Assembly: GCF_009914755.1 (NCBI RefSeq)
Contig: NC_060947.1
Origin: the human T2T-CHM13v2.0 reference genome, Homo sapiens
DNA: 64,000 nucleotides
Direction: 5' to 3' (one strand)
The notes beneath the pieces are model-generated. The model made no database searches, was not told the origin of the DNA, and was given only the letters and a program-made list of their open reading frames with translations. Shown piece by piece: positions 6,478-12,809 of the stretch (the first letter of the stretch is position 1; every line of letters starts with the position of its first letter). The translations under genes and the position numbers were made by a program.

Positions 6478-6486
6478 GAAAAGGTG

Positions 6487-6622
6487 GGGGTAGGAGCCAA
6501 GATGGCCGAATAGGAACAGCTCCGGTCTACAGCTCCCAGCCTGAGCGACGCAGAAGACAGGTGATTTCTGCATTTCCATCTGAGGTACCGGGTTCATCTC
6601 ACTAGGGAGTGCCAGACAGTGG
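6487..6622 (+). promoter_or_regulatory. Extra (outer) L1PA 5'UTR head, first ~136 nt with YY1 site
   Basis: ggggtaggagccaagatggccgaataggaacagctccgg...gccagacagtgg matches the start of a young L1. YY1 motif caagatggc intact. Confidence 0.93.
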
Positions 6623-6752
6623 TATTTCTCAAAAGAAAACATACAAATGGCACAGATATATGAAAAGGTGCTTAACATAATTATCAGAGAAATGCTAATC
6701 AACACTATAATGAGATATTACCACATCCCAGTTAAAATGGCTTACATCCAAA
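6623..6752 (+). mobile_element. Old L1MA-type ORF2 3' fragment acting as spacer between the two L1 heads
   Basis: atttctcaaaagaaaacatacaaatggc...atgagatatt...ccagttaaaatggcttacatccaaa is a diverged homolog of the L1 ORF2 'FSKEDI...[10 protein letters not shown]' region. Confidence 0.8.
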
Positions 6753-6955
6753 GTGGAGACAAGATGGCCGAATAGGAACAGCTCCGGTCTACAGCTCCCA
6801 GCATGAGGGAGGCAGAAGACAGGTGATTTCTGCACTTCCATCTGAGGTACCGGGTTCATCTCACTAGGGAGTGCCAGAAAGTGGGTGCAGGACAGTGGGT
6901 GCAGCACACCGTGCGCGAGCCGAAGCAGGGCGAGGTATTGCCTCCCTCAGGAAGC

Positions 6956-7201
6956 TCAAGGGGTCAGGGAGTTCCCTTTCCTAGTCAAAGAAAGGGGTGA
7001 CAGACCGCACCTGGAAAATCGGGTCTCTCCCACGCTAACACTGCGCTTTTCCGACAGGCTTAAAAAACGGCACACCGGGAGAATATATCCCGCACCTGGC
7101 TCGGAGGGTGCTAGGCCCACGGAGTCTCGCTGATTGCTAGCACAACACTCTGAGATCAAACAGCAAGGCGGCAGCCAGGCTGGGGGAGGGGCGCCCGCCA
7201 T
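6956..7201 (-). CDS. L1 antisense ORF0 (81 aa, open)
   Basis: MAGAPPPAWLPPCCLISECCASNQRDSVGLAPSEPGAGY... within track ORF 6956..7270 matches primate L1 ORF0. Confidence 0.7.
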   Translation of the reverse strand: MAGAPPPAWLPPCCLISECCASNQRDSVGLAPSEPGAGYILPVCRFLSLSEKRSVSVGETRFSRCGLSPLSLTRKGNSLTP

Positions 7202-8706: not shown

Positions 8707-8733
8707 CGAGCAAAATAACCAGCTAACATCATA

Positions 8734-11700
8734 ATGACAGGATCAAATTCACACATAACACTATTAACTTTAAATGTAAATGGACTAAATGCTCCAATTA
8801 AAAGACACAGACTGGCAAATTGGATAAAGAGTCAAGACCCATCAGTGTGCTGTATTCAGGAAACCCATCTCACGTGCAGAGACACACATAGGCTCAAAAT
8901 AAAAGGATGGAGGAAGATCTACCAAGCAAATGGAAAACAAAAAAAGGCAGGGGTTGCAATCCTAGTCTCTGATAAAACAGACTTTAAACCAACAAAGATC
9001 AAAAGAGACAAAGAAGGCCATTACATAATGGTAAAGGGATCAATTCAACAAGAAGAGCTAACTATCCTAAATATATATGCACCCAATACAGGAGCACCCA
9101 GATTCATAAAGCAAGTCCTGAGTGACCTACAAAGAGACTTAGACTCCCACACATTAGTAATGGGAGACTTTAACACCCCACTGTCAACATTAGACAGATC
9201 CACGAGACGGAAAGTCAACAAGGATACCCAGGAATTGAACTCACCTCTGCACCAAGCGGACCGAATAGACATCTACAGAACTCTCCACCCCAAATCAACA
9301 GAATATACATTTTTTTTCAGCACCACACCACACCTATTCCAAAATTGACCACATACTTGGAAGTAAAGCTCTCCTCAGCAAATGTAAAAGAACAGAAATT
9401 ATAACAAACTATCTCTCAGACCACAATGCAATCAAACTAGAACTCAGGATTAATAATCGCACTCAAAACCGCTCAACTACATGGAAACTGAACAACCTGC
9501 TCCTGAATGACTACTGGGTACATAACGAAATGAAGGCAGAAATAAAGATGTTCTTTGAAACCAATGAGAACAAAGACACAACATACCAGAATCTCTGGGA
9601 CGCATTCAAAGCAGCGTGTAGAGGGAAATTTATAGCACTAAATGCCTACAAGAGAAAGCAGGAAAGATCAAAAATTGACACCCTAACATCACAATTAAAA
9701 GAACTAGAAAAGCAAGAGCAAACACATTCAAAAGCTAGCAGAAGGCAAGAAATAACTAAAATCAGAGCATAACTGAAGGAAATAGAGACACAAAAAACCC
9801 TTCAAAAAATTAATGAATCCGGGAGCTGGTTTTTTGAAAAGATCAACAAAATTGATAGACCACTAGCAAGACTAATAAAGAAAAAAAGAGAGAAGAATCA
9901 AATAGACACAATAAAAAATGATAAAGGGGATATCACCACCGATCCCACAGAAATACAAACTACCATCAGAGAATACTACAAACACCTCTACGCAAATAAA
10001 CTAGAAAATCTAGAAGAAATGGATAAATTCCTTGACACATACACTCTCCCAAGACTAAACCAGGAAGAAGTTGAATCTCCAATAACAGGATCTGAAATTG
10101 TGGCAATAATCAATAGCTTACCAACCAAAAAGAGTCCAGGACCAGATGGATTCACAGCTGAATTCTACCAGAGGTACAAGGAGGAAGTGGTACCATTCCT
10201 TCTGAAACTATTCCAATCAATAGAAAAAGAGGGAATCCTCCCTAACTCATTTTACGAGGCCAGCATCACTCTGATACCAAAGCCGGGCAGAGACACAACG
10301 AAAAAAGAGAATTTTAGACCAATATCCTTGATGAACATTGATGCAAAAACCCTCAATAAAATACTGGCAAAACGAATCCAGCAGCACATCAAAAAGCTTA
10401 TCCACCATGTTCAAGTGGGCTTCATCCCTGGGATGCAAGGCTGGTTCAATATACACAAATCAATAAATGTAATCCAGCATATAAACAGAACCAAAGACAA
10501 AAACCACATGATTATCTCAATAGATGCAGAAAAGGCCTTTGACAAAATTCAACAACCCTTCATGCTAAAAACTCTCAATAAATTAGGTATTGATGGGACA
10601 TATTTGAAAATAATAAGAGCTATCTATGACAAACCCACAGCCAATATCATACTGCCTGGGCAAAAACTGGAAGCATTCCCTTTGAAAACTGGCACAAGAC
10701 AGGGATGGCCTCTCTCACCACTCCTATTCAACAAAGTGTTGGAAGTTCTGGCCAGGGCAATTAGGCAGGAGAAGGAAATAAAGGGTATTCAATTAGGAAA
10801 AGAGGAAGGAAGTCAAATTGTCCCTGTTTGCAGATGACATGATTGTATATCTAGAAAACCCCATTGTCTCAGCCCAAAATCTCCTTAAGCTGATAAGCAA
10901 CTTCAGCAAAGTCTCAGGATACAAAATCAATGTGCAAAAATCACAAGCATTCCTATACAACAACAACAGACAAACAGAGAGCCAAATCATGAGTGAACTC
11001 CCATTCACAATTGCTTCAAAGAGAATAAAATACCTAGGAATCCAACTTACAAGGGATGTGAAGGACCTCTTCAAGGAGAACTACAAACCACTGCTCAAGG
11101 AAATAAAAGAGGATACAAACAAATGGAAGAACATTCCATGCTCATGGGTAGGAAGAATCAATATCGTGAAAATGGCCATACTGCCCAAGGTAATTTACAG
11201 ATTCAATGCCATCCCCATCAAGCTACCAATGCCTTTCTTCACACAATTGGAAAAAACTACTTTAAAGTTCATATGGAACCAAAAAAGAGCCCACATCGCC
11301 AAGTCAATCCTAAGCCAAAAGAACAAAGCTGGAGGCATCACACTACCTGACTTCAAACTATACTACAAGGCTACAGTAACCAAAACAGCATGGTACTGGT
11401 ACCAAAACAGAGATATAGATCAATGGAACAGAACAGAGCCCTCAGAAATAACGCCGCATATCTACAACTATCTGATCTTTGACAAACCTGAGAAAAACAA
11501 GCAATGGGGAAAGGATTCCCTATTTAATAAATGGTACTGGGAAAACTGGCTAGCCATATGGAGAAAGCTGAAACTGGATCCCTTCCTTACACCTTATACA
11601 AAAATCAATTCAAGATGGATTAAAGACTTAAACGTTAGACCTAAAACCATAAAAACCCTAGAAGAAAACCTAGGCATTACCATTCAGGACATAGGCATGG

Positions 11701-12557
11701 GCAAGGACTTCATGTCTAAAACACCAAAAGCAATGGCAACAAAAGCCAAAATTGACAAATGGGATCTAATTAAACTAAAGAGCTTCTGCACAGCAAAAGA
11801 AACTACCATCAGAGTGAACAGGCAACCTACAAAATGGAAGAAAATTTTTGCAACCTACTCATCTGACAAAGGGCTAATATCCAGAATCTACAATGAACTC
11901 AAACAAATTTACAAGAAAAAAACAAACAACCCCATCAAAAAGTGGGCGAAGGACATGAACAGACACTTCTCAAAAGAAGACATTTATGCAGCCAAAAGAC
12001 ACATGAAAAAATGCTCATCATCACTGGCCATCAGAGAAATGCAAATCAAAACCACAATGAGATACCATCTCACACCACTTAGAATGGCAATCATTAAAAA
12101 GTCAGGAAACAACAGGTGCTGGAGAGGATGTGGAGAAATAGGAACACTTTTACACTGTTGGTGGGACTGTCAACTAGTTCAACCATTGTGGAAGTCAGTG
12201 TGGCGATTCCTCAGGGATCTAGAACTGGAAATACCATTTGACGCAGCCATCCCATTACTGGGTATATACCCAAAGGACTATAAATCATGCTGCTATAAAG
12301 ACACATGCACATGTATGTCTATTGCGACATTATTCACGATAGCAAAGACTTGGAACCAACCCAAATGTCCAACAATGATAGACTGGATTAAGAAAATGTG
12401 GCACATATACACCATGGAATACTATGCAGCCATAAAAAATGATGAGTTCATGTCCTTTGTAGGGACATGGATGAAATTGGAAATCATCATTCTCAGTAAA
12501 CTATCGCAAGAACAAAAAACCAAACACCGCATGTTCTCACTCATAGGTGGGAATTGA
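8734..12557 (+). pseudogene. L1 ORF2p (endonuclease/RT), disrupted
   Basis: MTGSNSHIT... start; frameshift in the T-run at ~9310-9317; TAA at ~9770; 4-bp duplication at ~10805; FADD motif and C-terminal Cys region present. Confidence 0.95.
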
Positions 12558-12809
12558 ACAATGAGATCACATGGACACAGGAAGAGGAACATCACACTCT
12601 GGGGACTGTTGTGGGGTGGGGGGAGGGGGGAGGGATAGCACTGGGAGATATACCTAATGCTAGATGACGAGTTAGTGGGTGCAGCGCACCAGCATGGCAC
12701 ATGTATACGTATGTAACTAACCTGCACAATGTGCACATGTACCCTAAAACTTAAAGTATAATAATAAAAAAAAAATTAAAAAAAAAAAAAAAGAAAAGGT
12801 GTCCTGAGT

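What the first reader, a model, noticed from the sequence alone, without database searches (positions are those of the whole stretch)
6478..12801. Double-headed L1: extra promoter head, L1M spacer and full-length L1 inside a single TSD
Seen: L1 5'UTR nt ~1-136 (6487-6622), then 130 bp of ancient L1M ORF2 (6623-6752), then a second L1 start at 6753 running full length to the polyA. The TSD GAAAAGGTG flanks the outer head (6478-6486) and the polyA (12793-12801); no matching repeat precedes the inner head. The reconstructed empty site TT/GAAA is a plausible L1 endonuclease site. The two heads differ at 6 of ~130 positions. Against the recalled L1PA2/3 consensus the outer head has ~2 changes and the inner ~7; both keep the YY1 site. 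Known: primate L1s carry one internal promoter, unlike rodent tandem monomers, and 5' transductions arise from upstream promoters. Inference: a source L1 acquired a fresh upstream promoter head and was copied as one ~6.3-kb unit, possibly a small lineage with tandem promoters. Alternative: a one-off RT template switch between L1 RNAs.
Basis: partly seen in the sequence, partly recalled or inferred. Interest (0 to 1): 0.82.

Follow-up and report, generated by a model that had tools for sequence, protein, structure and literature searches.

The report
Mosaic L1 with a duplicated head
A dead L1 retrotransposon in an FGF13 intron has two copies of its first 136 bases because about 800 bases from an older L1 locus 12 million bases away on the X chromosome were patched into its front end; this is a one-off repair or copying accident, not a new mobile lineage.

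Summary
A 9-bp target-site duplication (TSD), GAAAAGGTG, brackets an L1 head (6487-6622), 130 bp of ancient L1 ORF2 (6623-6752), then a second head running to the polyA.

The spacer and inner head come from one other locus, chrX:124.77 Mb (L002/L031). There the old L1 continues upstream without any L1 head. That locus's own TSD shows the old-L1/L1 junction was created there.

Only window 6623 to about 7423-7446 derives from that locus: 15 of 25 rare window alleles are shared with it. In the body, 8156-12792, only 2 of 48 are shared. Trees place the patch with the donor (support 0.995) and the body in a younger clade that lacks the ~128-bp 5'UTR block. The outer head carries that younger clade's marker.

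So this is one young full-length L1 with an ~800-bp foreign patch in its 5'UTR. The left joint has TGG microhomology and the right joint lies in homologous sequence. Both junctions are unique in the genome, so there is no lineage.

Likely mechanisms:
- Ectopic templated DNA repair, meaning gene conversion plus microhomology joining: about 55%.
- Two reverse-transcriptase template switches during insertion: about 27%.

Ape orthologues would decide between them.

The parts
6478..6486 (+). 5' copy of the target-site duplication GAAAAGGTG
   Evidence: Read. It is identical to 12793-12801. The reconstructed nick site on the bottom strand is TTTC/AA, one base off the TTTT/A consensus quoted in PMC1920257.
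6487..6622 (+). Outer head: nt 1-136 of the young host L1 (element X)
   Evidence: It is a complete 5' end, GGGGTAGGAGCC. At AGC[C]TGAG it carries the C found in 4 of 5 members of the clade that holds the window's L1 body, and in 1 of 18 other heads (Fisher p=0.0027). It has the common C at both sites where the inner head and L031 share a rare A.
6620..6622 (+). TGG microhomology at the left joint of the patch
   Evidence: The window reads ...ACAGTGG|TATTTC. The donor reads ...GAATTGG|TATTTC. There is no AG before the joint in the donor and no GT after it in the young-type L1, so this is not a splice joint.
6623..6752 (+). Spacer: 130 bp of ancient L1 ORF2 copied from the upstream flank of the chrX:124.77 Mb L1. 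Positions 6734-6752 are the 5' TSD copy of that L1.
   Evidence: Window 6620-6790 is 98% identical to L002. The old L1 runs on upstream there. The donor's 3' TSD copy, AAAATGGCTTACATCCAAA, equals the window version.
6753..7435 (+). Inner head and 5'UTR segment (L1 nt ~5 to ~680) copied from the chrX:124.77 Mb L1. The right edge lies between 7424 and 7446.
   Evidence: It is the best genome-wide match of the donor 5'UTR: 96%, with the next best at 94%. In 6753-7396, 15 of 25 rare window alleles are shared with L031. The window+L031 clade has support 0.995. Of 12 lineage-diagnostic sites, 10 are old-type and 0 young-type. The last shared markers are at 7395 and 7423. The first non-donor markers are the 7-nt indel at 7447-7453 and site 7468.
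7436..12792 (+). Remainder of host L1 X: rest of the 5'UTR (lacking the ~128-bp block), broken ORF1 and ORF2, 3'UTR and polyA (about 12763-12792)
   Evidence: From 7488 to 8424 the diagnostic sites are young-type at 10, old-type at 3 and other at 3, and the ~128-bp block is absent. In 8156-12792 only 2 of 48 rare window alleles are shared with L031. The body tree places it with L032-L035 and L040. The ORFs are fragmented.
12793..12801 (+). 3' copy of the target-site duplication GAAAAGGTG
   Evidence: Read, directly after the polyA.

Best explanation
**Structure (about 0.9 sure).** One young full-length L1, here called X, inserted by ordinary target-primed reverse transcription and made the 9-bp TSD. 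X is of the late L1PA3/L1PA2-like kind that lacks the ~128-bp 5'UTR block.

X's nt 137 to about 680 have been replaced by an ~800-bp patch copied from chrX:124.77 Mb. That locus lies 12.3 Mb away on the same strand. The patch holds 130 bp of the ancient L1 flanking an older L1 there, plus that older L1's 5'UTR nt ~5 to ~680. Because the patch brings its own head, the element now has two heads.

**Mechanism (inferred, about 0.55).** A DNA break in X's 5'UTR was repaired from the ectopic homologous L1.
1. The right end paired with the donor 5'UTR.
2. It was extended leftward past the donor L1's 5' end and 130 bp into the donor's flank.
3. It was then released and joined to the left end at nt 136 through the TGG microhomology.

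This is gene conversion or synthesis-dependent strand annealing coupled to microhomology end joining.

The element is dead, since its ORFs are broken, and it has no daughters. The second head is a by-product, not a designed tandem promoter.
For: **Donor locus**
- The donor is identified, and its old-L1/L1 junction was created there. The old L1 is collinear on both sides of the donor L1 (L1 nt ...5336 | 5333...). A 19-bp TSD is present.
- The window keeps the ancestral form of that TSD copy.

**Mosaic structure**
- Rare alleles shared with L031 number 15 of 25 in 6753-7396 and 2 of 48 in 8156-12792 (Fisher p=2e-7).
- The trees differ by segment.
- Diagnostic sites switch from old-type (10 of 12) to young-type (10 of 16, plus the block indel) between 7400 and 7493.
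- The outer head carries the body clade's C marker.

**Joints**
- The left joint has 3-nt microhomology, which has about 5% probability by chance.
- The right joint is seamless, within homologous sequence.

**Uniqueness**
- The inner junction occurs at 2 places in the genome, the window and the donor.
- The outer junction occurs at 1 place, plus one 3-mismatch hit at chance level.

**For a DNA-level event specifically**
- Donor and recipient are on the same chromosome. That is expected for only a few percent of random RNA donors (inference).
- Both joints fall at internal positions of the templates. ORF2p jumping, as described in vitro, continues onto a new incoming template after the first one ends (PMC10830420, passages).
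- The patch edge lies 37-59 bp before the donor's 678-bp internal deletion. That fits pairing limited by the end of uninterrupted homology, if the deletion was already there.
- There is a published precedent. NCLI34 has a diverged middle L1 segment whose 98% donor lies on the same chromosome. It was read as intrachromosomal gene conversion (PMC1920257, passages).
Against: - **Timing.** Non-CpG changes since the patch and donor split number 11 in 568 columns, and 11.2 would be expected if the patch is exactly as old as X. The estimate is r=0.98, 95% interval 0.49-1.75. This favours an event at insertion over a random later time by a factor of 1.7-3.0.
- **No species comparison.** No ape or monkey orthologue could be examined, so it is not shown that X ever existed without the patch.
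- **Same-chromosome argument.** This is inference without a measured rate for 12-Mb distances.
- **Deletion argument.** It assumes the donor's deletion predates the event, which was not tested.
- **Comparators.** The 24 comparator copies were not a random sample. Sixteen were top matches to the window L1 or to the L031 body. Eight were top matches to the L031 5'UTR.
- **Rare-allele cut-off.** The threshold of at most 1 of 24 comparators is arbitrary.
- **Alignment.** The stretch 7447-7482 aligns untidily for L031.
- **Outer head.** It shares with the inner head and L031 an A at one CpG site (GACAGGTG), also seen in L035. I read this as recurrent deamination but cannot prove it.
Confidence: 0.55

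Rival explanations
1. The composite was made in a single retrotransposition event by two reverse-transcriptase template switches.
1. ORF2p copied X RNA from the polyA to about nt 680.
2. It moved to a homologous position on a read-through RNA from the chrX:124.77 Mb locus.
3. It copied that RNA to a point 130 nt upstream of the donor L1.
4. It then landed through TGG microhomology on nt 136 of X RNA, or of another RNA of the same sublineage, and ran to nt 1.
For: - One TSD encloses everything.
- The patch is as old as X within error. The estimate is r=0.98, with a likelihood ratio of 1.7-3.0 for r=1 against a uniform later time.
- There is microhomology at the left joint.
- ORF2p makes template-jumping products in vitro (PMC10830420, passages).
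- L1 chimeras with other RNAs inside one TSD are catalogued (Law & Burns preprint 10.1101/2025.02.02.635956, abstract and section 24; PMC1920257, passages).
Against: - It needs two switches, both onto internal template positions.
- It needs a transcript of an old locus that starts or reads through in the upstream ancient L1. The donor L1 carries about 2.5 times as many rare alleles as X.
- The donor lying on the same chromosome would be coincidence.
- The patch edge lying 37-59 bp from the donor's deletion breakpoint would also be coincidence.
Confidence: 0.27
2. The composite arose elsewhere in a master copy with tandem heads, and the window holds a retrotransposed daughter started from the outer head. 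The master has since been lost or is absent from this assembly.
For: - The TSD abuts nt 1 of the outer head, as expected for an RNA started there.
- The dating allows r of 1 or more.
Against: - The outer junction occurs once in 3.1 Gb.
- The inner junction occurs only in the window and the donor.
- No other copy carries the donor-specific 5'UTR alleles. After the window at 96%, the next best match is 94%.
- It needs an unobserved locus on top of the same chimera-forming event.
Confidence: 0.08
3. This is a plain 5' transduction. The whole inner L1 plus 130 bp of upstream flank was retrotransposed from chrX:124.77 Mb, and one further switch added the outer head.
For: The spacer and inner head are 98% identical to that locus. 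A single TSD encloses everything.
Against: - The body is not from that locus. Only 2 of 123 rare L031 alleles are shared in 8156-12792.
- L031 is 94.7% identical to the window body, while 16 other copies are 95.2-96.9% identical.
- The two bodies fall in different clades of the body tree.
- The window lacks the old-type states from 7493 onward.
Confidence: 0.03

Closest known systems
Internal L1 segment replaced by intrachromosomal gene conversion (locus NCLI34 of Sen et al. 2007, PMC1920257; passages read)
   Same: A diverged middle segment sits inside a younger L1. Its near-identical (98%) donor lies elsewhere on the same chromosome. The authors read it as a later intrachromosomal gene conversion.
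   Different: Here the tract also carries 130 bp of the donor's non-homologous upstream flank and a second copy of the L1 head. The host is a full-length, TSD-flanked TPRT insertion, not an endonuclease-independent one.
Repair of a chromosomal break in a LINE by gene conversion from endogenous LINEs in mouse cells (Tremblay, Jasin & Chartrand 2000)
   Same: An ectopic L1 serves as donor for a break in an L1. A review states that non-allelic homologous recombination between diverged LINEs occurs at appreciable frequency (PMC7407515, passage).
   Different: That work is an experimental system in cultured mouse cells. I saw only its title in two reference lists and second-hand sentences, because the paper itself is not held. 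That such repair can end non-homologously and capture donor flank is my recollection, not something I read.
L1 chimeric insertions made by RT template switching or RNA joining (U6/L1 and mRNA/L1 5' chimeras)
   Same: Two templates lie inside one TSD, and the extra sequence sits at the 5' side of a near full-length L1 (10.1101/2025.02.02.635956, abstract and section 24; PMC1920257).
   Different: In those cases the 5' partner is a different RNA, joined once at or near the L1 5' end or at splice sites. Here the partner is another L1 locus, the foreign piece is internal, and it is flanked on both sides by the same host L1. That paper's main text has 0 occurrences of FGF13 and 0 of chrX. Its supplements are closed.
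L1 5' transduction
   Same: Sequence immediately upstream of a source L1, including that L1's own 5' TSD copy, has moved together with the L1 head.
   Different: The defining link between the transduced flank and the whole downstream L1 fails, because only about 680 nt of the L1 come from that source. The TSD does not abut the transduced flank.
Tandem monomer promoters of mouse L1
   Same: Two promoter-proximal heads lie in tandem, 266 bp apart.
   Different: This is a single locus with no amplified family. The repeat unit is interrupted by foreign ORF2-derived sequence, and no activity is shown. Knowledge of the mouse system is recalled, apart from one abstract line (10.1101/2021.12.03.471143, listing).
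SpIREs, spliced L1 retrocopies (Larson et al. 2018, PMC5860796; passages)
   Same: They are altered 5'UTR architecture inside a normal TSD-flanked L1.
   Different: SpIRE joints sit at GU/AG splice sites (98/99 with 620/621, 788/789 or 974/975) and delete sequence. Here neither joint has a GT-AG pair, and sequence is added.

Membership tests
Canonical endonuclease-dependent (TPRT) full-length L1 insertion | Target-site duplication directly abutting the 5' end and the polyA | tested here: met
   GAAAAGGTG lies at 6478-6486 and 12793-12801, a 9 of 9 match. Chance is 3.8e-6.
Canonical endonuclease-dependent (TPRT) full-length L1 insertion | PolyA tail and a T-rich/A nick site | tested here: met
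   An A-rich tail runs from about 12763 to 12792. The inferred bottom-strand site is TTTC/AA, against TTTT/A as quoted in PMC1920257.
Canonical endonuclease-dependent (TPRT) full-length L1 insertion | 5' end at nt 1 of the family | tested here: met
   The outer head starts GGGGTAGGAGCC. Five comparators (L033, L034, L041, L043, L048) start GGGGGAGGAGCC.
5'-transduced retrocopy of the chrX:124.77 Mb L1 | Carries the source's upstream flank | tested here: met
   The spacer is 98% identical to the flank, including the source's 5' TSD copy.
5'-transduced retrocopy of the chrX:124.77 Mb L1 | The whole L1 behind the flank descends from that source | tested here: not met
   Rare alleles shared with the source are 15 of 25 in 6753-7396 but 2 of 48 in 8156-12792. 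The trees are discordant.
5'-transduced retrocopy of the chrX:124.77 Mb L1 | The TSD abuts the transduced flank | tested here: not met
   136 bp of L1 head lie between the TSD and the flank.
Ectopic gene conversion / SDSA patch with a non-homologous (microhomology) end | An identifiable donor, with a continuous donor-type tract inside a recipient of another lineage | tested here: met
   No young-type site occurs among the 12 diagnostic sites in 6753-7400.
Ectopic gene conversion / SDSA patch with a non-homologous (microhomology) end | One edge in homology, the other at microhomology with capture of donor flank | tested here: met
   The right edge, 7424-7446, is seamless. The left edge has TGG, followed by 130 bp of donor flank.
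Ectopic gene conversion / SDSA patch with a non-homologous (microhomology) end | The recipient existed without the patch before the event | not testable with these tools
   No primate assemblies or human pangenome are on hand. Dating gives r=0.98 (0.49-1.75), which neither shows nor excludes a later event.
RT template-switch L1 chimera | All parts arrive together inside one TSD | tested here: inconclusive
   One TSD is shown. Simultaneous arrival is only compatible with the dating.
RT template-switch L1 chimera | The jump occurs from the end of one template onto a new template | tested here: inconclusive
   Both joints lie at internal positions of L1 (nt 136 and about 680). Whether the donor RNA began at the joint is unknown.
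SpIRE / spliced chimera | GT...AG at the joint | tested here: not met
   Across the 4 possible registers of the TGG joint, none has AG before the donor side (GAATTGG|TATTTC). The host side would offer only GC.
Mobile lineage with tandem promoter heads | Several loci with the same junctions and different TSDs | tested here: not met
   The outer junction occurs at 1 locus and the inner junction at 2, the window and the donor, with up to 3 mismatches allowed in 3.1 Gb. Only this one assembly was searched.

The most novel reading that the evidence does not exclude
The composite was written in one retrotransposition event. L1 ORF2p would have switched from its own RNA to a read-through RNA of an old, dead L1 locus, then back to an internal site of its own RNA. 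This is copy-choice recombination between L1 RNAs. It would show a natural route by which primate L1s can exchange or rebuild 5'UTR segments, take up foreign sequence into the 5'UTR, and acquire tandem promoter heads.
Probability: 0.27. Interest if true: 0.55.

Novelty: new member of a known kind. Interest (0 to 1): 0.3.

Why it matters
**What the locus shows.** It is a clean, fully traceable natural example of one L1 being rewritten from another. The donor, the recipient, both joints and the relative ages can all be read from a single assembly.

**Caution for annotation.** A structure that looks like a 5' transduction, or a new promoter architecture, can be an internal patch. Source-tracing by transduced flank alone would mis-assign this element's parent.

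**If the RT-switch reading is right.** The locus would bear on how L1 lineages exchange 5'UTR sequence.

**If the DNA-repair reading is right.** It is one more germline case of repeat-templated break repair on the X chromosome.

**Function.** No consequence is shown. The element's ORFs are broken. The RefSeq 'enhancer' row over 6261-7460 was not examined.

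Tried and rejected
- **Splicing of an upstream L1 head onto the donor transcript.** Rejected, because no GT-AG pair exists in any register of the TGG joint.
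- **Resident old L1 at the FGF13 site with two separate insertions.** Rejected. The spacer is 98% identical to chrX:124.77 Mb and includes that L1's TSD copy. No TSD precedes the inner head.
- **In-place tandem duplication of the head.** Rejected. The inner head carries two donor-lineage alleles that the outer head lacks, and the sequence between the heads is foreign.
- **Whole-element 5' transduction.** Rejected.
- **The reverse case, an old-type retrocopy later overwritten by a young L1.** Rejected on parsimony. It would need a 5.3-kb tract ending exactly at the polyA, plus a head added exactly at the TSD.
- **Rebuilding the empty site from paralogues.** This failed. The left flank, about 6055-6477, is an ancient repeat matching many loci at 68-74%. 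The right flank has no match in the 5 paralogous loci fetched.
- **Raw identity as a test of parentage.** It was uninformative. All 16 comparators were closer to the window L1 than the donor is, so allele sharing and trees were used instead.
- **Tools and papers not available.** Tremblay 2000 and Gilbert 2005 are not held. Two paper searches gave nothing specific.
- **Assembly artefact.** This could not be tested.

Full report
**1. Observation**

Direct reading confirms every coordinate.
- The TSD GAAAAGGTG lies at 6478-6486 and again at 12793-12801, right after the A-rich tail.
- The outer L1 head is 6487-6622. It begins GGGGTAGGAGCC, a complete 5' end like GGGGGAGGAGCC in five comparator copies. 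It ends ...GCCAGACAGTGG.
- A 130-bp stretch follows at 6623-6752. It aligns at 72% to nt 5215-5336 of the window's own L1 and at 82-87% to many old L1 loci.
- A second head starts at 6753 and runs 6040 bp to the polyA.
- The two heads differ at 6 aligned positions.
- The ORFs are broken: one 260-aa ORF1 piece and ORF2 in at least three pieces.

**2. Where the spacer comes from**

A 201-base query across both junctions found one other near-identical place in the 3.1-Gb assembly. It is G000:C23:124772532-124772702, at 98% over window 6620-6790 (loci L002 and L031).
- There the old L1 runs on continuously upstream of the spacer, with no L1 head.
- The old L1 is collinear with L1 ORF2 on both sides of the resident L1: nt 4973-5336 before it and nt 5333-5799 after it.
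- The resident L1 has its own TSD. AAAATGGCTTACATCCAAA follows its polyA, and a copy with three clustered changes precedes its 5' end.
- The window's spacer ends with the unchanged form of that TSD copy.

So the old-L1/L1 junction was created at chrX:124.77 Mb and was later copied to the FGF13 site. The spacer is not resident DNA. The donor has no upstream head.

**3. The body behind the inner head is not from that locus**

By blastn, window 6620-7453 is 96.3% identical to the donor, but 8156-12792 is only 94.7% identical. Sixteen other L1 copies are 95.2-96.9% identical to the window L1. Raw identity cannot settle parentage, so I counted shared rare alleles.

The alignment held 26 copies: the window, L031 and 24 comparators. 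Sixteen comparators were chosen as top matches of the window L1 or of the L031 body. Eight were chosen as top matches of the L031 5'UTR. A 'rare' base is one seen in at most 1 of the 24 comparators.

| Segment | Window rare alleles | L031 rare alleles | Shared |
|---|---|---|---|
| 6753-7396 | 25 | 23 | 15 |
| 8156-12792 | 48 | 123 | 2 |

Fisher tests give p=2e-7 and p=6e-13.

- The first, 18-copy version gave the same picture. The window and L031 shared 19 private sites, 16 of them before 7396. The other copies shared 0-3 each.
- The donor's 5'UTR has the window as its best genome-wide match at 96%, with the next best at 94%.
- FastTree on 6753-7396 used 24 tips, with L039 and L044 dropped for gaps. 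It joins the window and L031 with support 0.995, next to L049 and L054.
- FastTree on 8156-12792 used 25 tips, with L049 dropped. The window sits with L032-L035 and L040, while L031 is basal with L054.

**4. Edges of the patch**

I used sites that separate L049+L054 from the window-body clade.

| Interval | Old-type | Young-type | Other |
|---|---|---|---|
| 6753-7400 (12 sites) | 10 | 0 | 2 |
| 7488-8424 (16 sites) | 3 | 10 | 3 |

- The window also lacks the ~128-bp block that L049 and L054 carry at L1 nt ~775. According to passages of PMC5860796, this 129-bp piece holds the ZNF93 site and was lost from L1PA3 onward.
- In the fine view, the last markers shared by window and L031 are at 7395 and, at a CpG site, 7423. 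The first markers where the window departs from L031 are a 7-nt indel at 7447-7453 and site 7468.
- The right edge is therefore 7424-7446, inside homologous sequence.
- The left edge is the spacer start. Window and donor both read TGG before TATTTC. This 3-nt microhomology has about 5% probability by chance.
- No register of that joint gives GT...AG, so splicing is excluded.

**5. The outer head belongs with the body**

At AGC[C]TGAG the outer head has C. That C occurs in 4 of the 5 members of the window-body clade and in 1 of 18 other heads (p=0.0027). At the two head sites where the inner head and L031 share a rare A, the outer head has the common C.

The simplest reading is one element X: nt 1-136, the patch, then nt ~680 to the end, inside its own TSD. 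With only one informative site, a third L1 of the same sublineage cannot be excluded as the source of the outer head.

**6. Uniqueness**

With up to 3 mismatches, the inner junction occurs twice, in the window and the donor. The outer junction occurs once, plus one unrelated-looking 3-mismatch hit on C7. The reversed-pattern controls found 0 in each orientation. Only this one assembly was searched. No family exists here.

**7. Ages (non-CpG columns)**

- X body: 45 private changes in 4551 columns (0.99%).
- Donor body: 118 private changes in 4551 columns (2.6%).
- Patch: 5 window-only and 6 donor-only changes in 568 columns.

If the patch is exactly as old as X, 11.2 pairwise changes are expected, and 11 are seen. 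This gives r=0.98 (95% 0.49-1.75). So the donor L1 carries about 2.5 times as many rare alleles as X. Read as relative age, that makes it the older element. The patch was made at, or within roughly the first half of the time since, X's insertion.

**8. Mechanism**

Two processes give exactly this product.

*(a) DNA-level repair.* A break in X's 5'UTR is repaired from the ectopic L1. The right end pairs in homology and is extended leftward through the donor head and 130 bp into the donor's flank. It is then released and joined to the left end at TGG.

*(b) Two RT template switches during X's own insertion.*

Points for (a):
- Donor and recipient lie on one chromosome (inference; no rate was measured).
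- Both joints are internal to the templates.
- The donor was old.
- The patch edge lies 37-59 bp before the donor's 678-bp deletion. That deletion corresponds to window 7483-8160 and has GGGAG microhomology. This is natural if pairing stopped near the end of uninterrupted homology.
- There is the published precedent NCLI34 (PMC1920257, passages).

Points for (b):
- A single TSD encloses everything.
- The dating favours r=1 by 1.7-3.0 fold.
- ORF2p template jumping is shown in vitro (PMC10830420, passages).
- 5' chimeras inside one TSD are catalogued (preprint 10.1101/2025.02.02.635956, abstract and section 24).

My odds:

| Reading | Odds |
|---|---|
| DNA repair | about 0.55 |
| Two RT template switches | 0.27 |
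| Lost composite master | 0.08 |
| Plain 5' transduction | 0.03 |
| Other | remainder |

**9. Comparison and novelty**

This is a gene-converted or recombinant L1, which is a known kind. Its unusual side product is a second head plus captured donor flank. It is not a 5' transduction in the defining sense, not a SpIRE, and not a tandem-promoter lineage.

I found no mention of this locus. FGF13 and chrX each occur 0 times in the main text of the Law & Burns preprint, and its supplements are closed. The five topical searches listed nothing on a double-headed human L1. That is a weak negative.

**10. Limits**

- No other species or haplotype could be examined.
- The comparators were chosen by similarity.
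- The rare-allele threshold is arbitrary.
- L1PA subfamily names and absolute ages are recalled, not computed.
- The RefSeq enhancer row over 6261-7460 was not examined.
- One CpG-site A (GACAGGTG) is shared by the outer head, the inner head, L031 and L035. I read it as recurrent deamination.

Noticed in passing
L031:3383-3389 (donor L1 at G000:C23:124.77 Mb): The donor L1 lacks 678 bp, corresponding to window 7483-8160 (5'UTR end to mid ORF1). The deletion joint has a 5-nt GGGAG microhomology. The patch in the window ends 37-59 bp before this breakpoint. I have no proven explanation for that closeness.
   Followed up: partly
L031:2651-2664 versus L031:8021-8040 and window 6734-6752: The donor L1's 5' TSD copy has three clustered substitutions (ACCTGCAAG against ACATCCAAA). 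Its 3' copy and the copy preserved in the window agree with each other. The cluster therefore arose after the patch was copied.
   Followed up: partly
L039 (G000:C4:118475310-118480828); also C10:110495401-110498666 and C3:12028092-12031331: These L1 copies have 5'UTR nt ~95-618 missing. L039 reads CATCTGAG|CTTTGAAGAG. This matches the SpIRE97/622 spliced class described in PMC5860796.
   Followed up: partly
L046 and L047 (G000:C14:9589156-9595803 and C22:12350493-12357141): This is a near-identical pair of L1 copies on two chromosomes. Both have the same internal 5'UTR gap (window-L1 nt 518 to 1231) and the same 5' flank. It looks like a segmental duplication rather than two insertions.
   Followed up: no
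window 6055-6477: The left flank of the insertion is an ancient interspersed repeat, 68-74% identical to many loci. Its similarity ends right at the TSD. It does not match L1 at the sensitivity used, and its family was not named.
   Followed up: partly
L031:2293-2299: The ancient L1 that hosts the donor has its own internal gap. Collinearity with L1 jumps from nt ~3206 to ~4973.
   Followed up: no
window 6808 and 6811 (inner head): The inner head reads GAGGGAGGCAG where most copies read GAGCGACGCAG, meaning two C-to-G changes at neighbouring CpGs. The unrelated copy L033 has the same pair, and L046 and L047 have the first one. This suggests a recurrent change at these sites.
   Followed up: no
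window 6037-6678, minus strand: A 213-aa ATG-started open frame runs across the left flank, the TSD and the outer head. No evidence was sought that it is more than chance.
   Followed up: no
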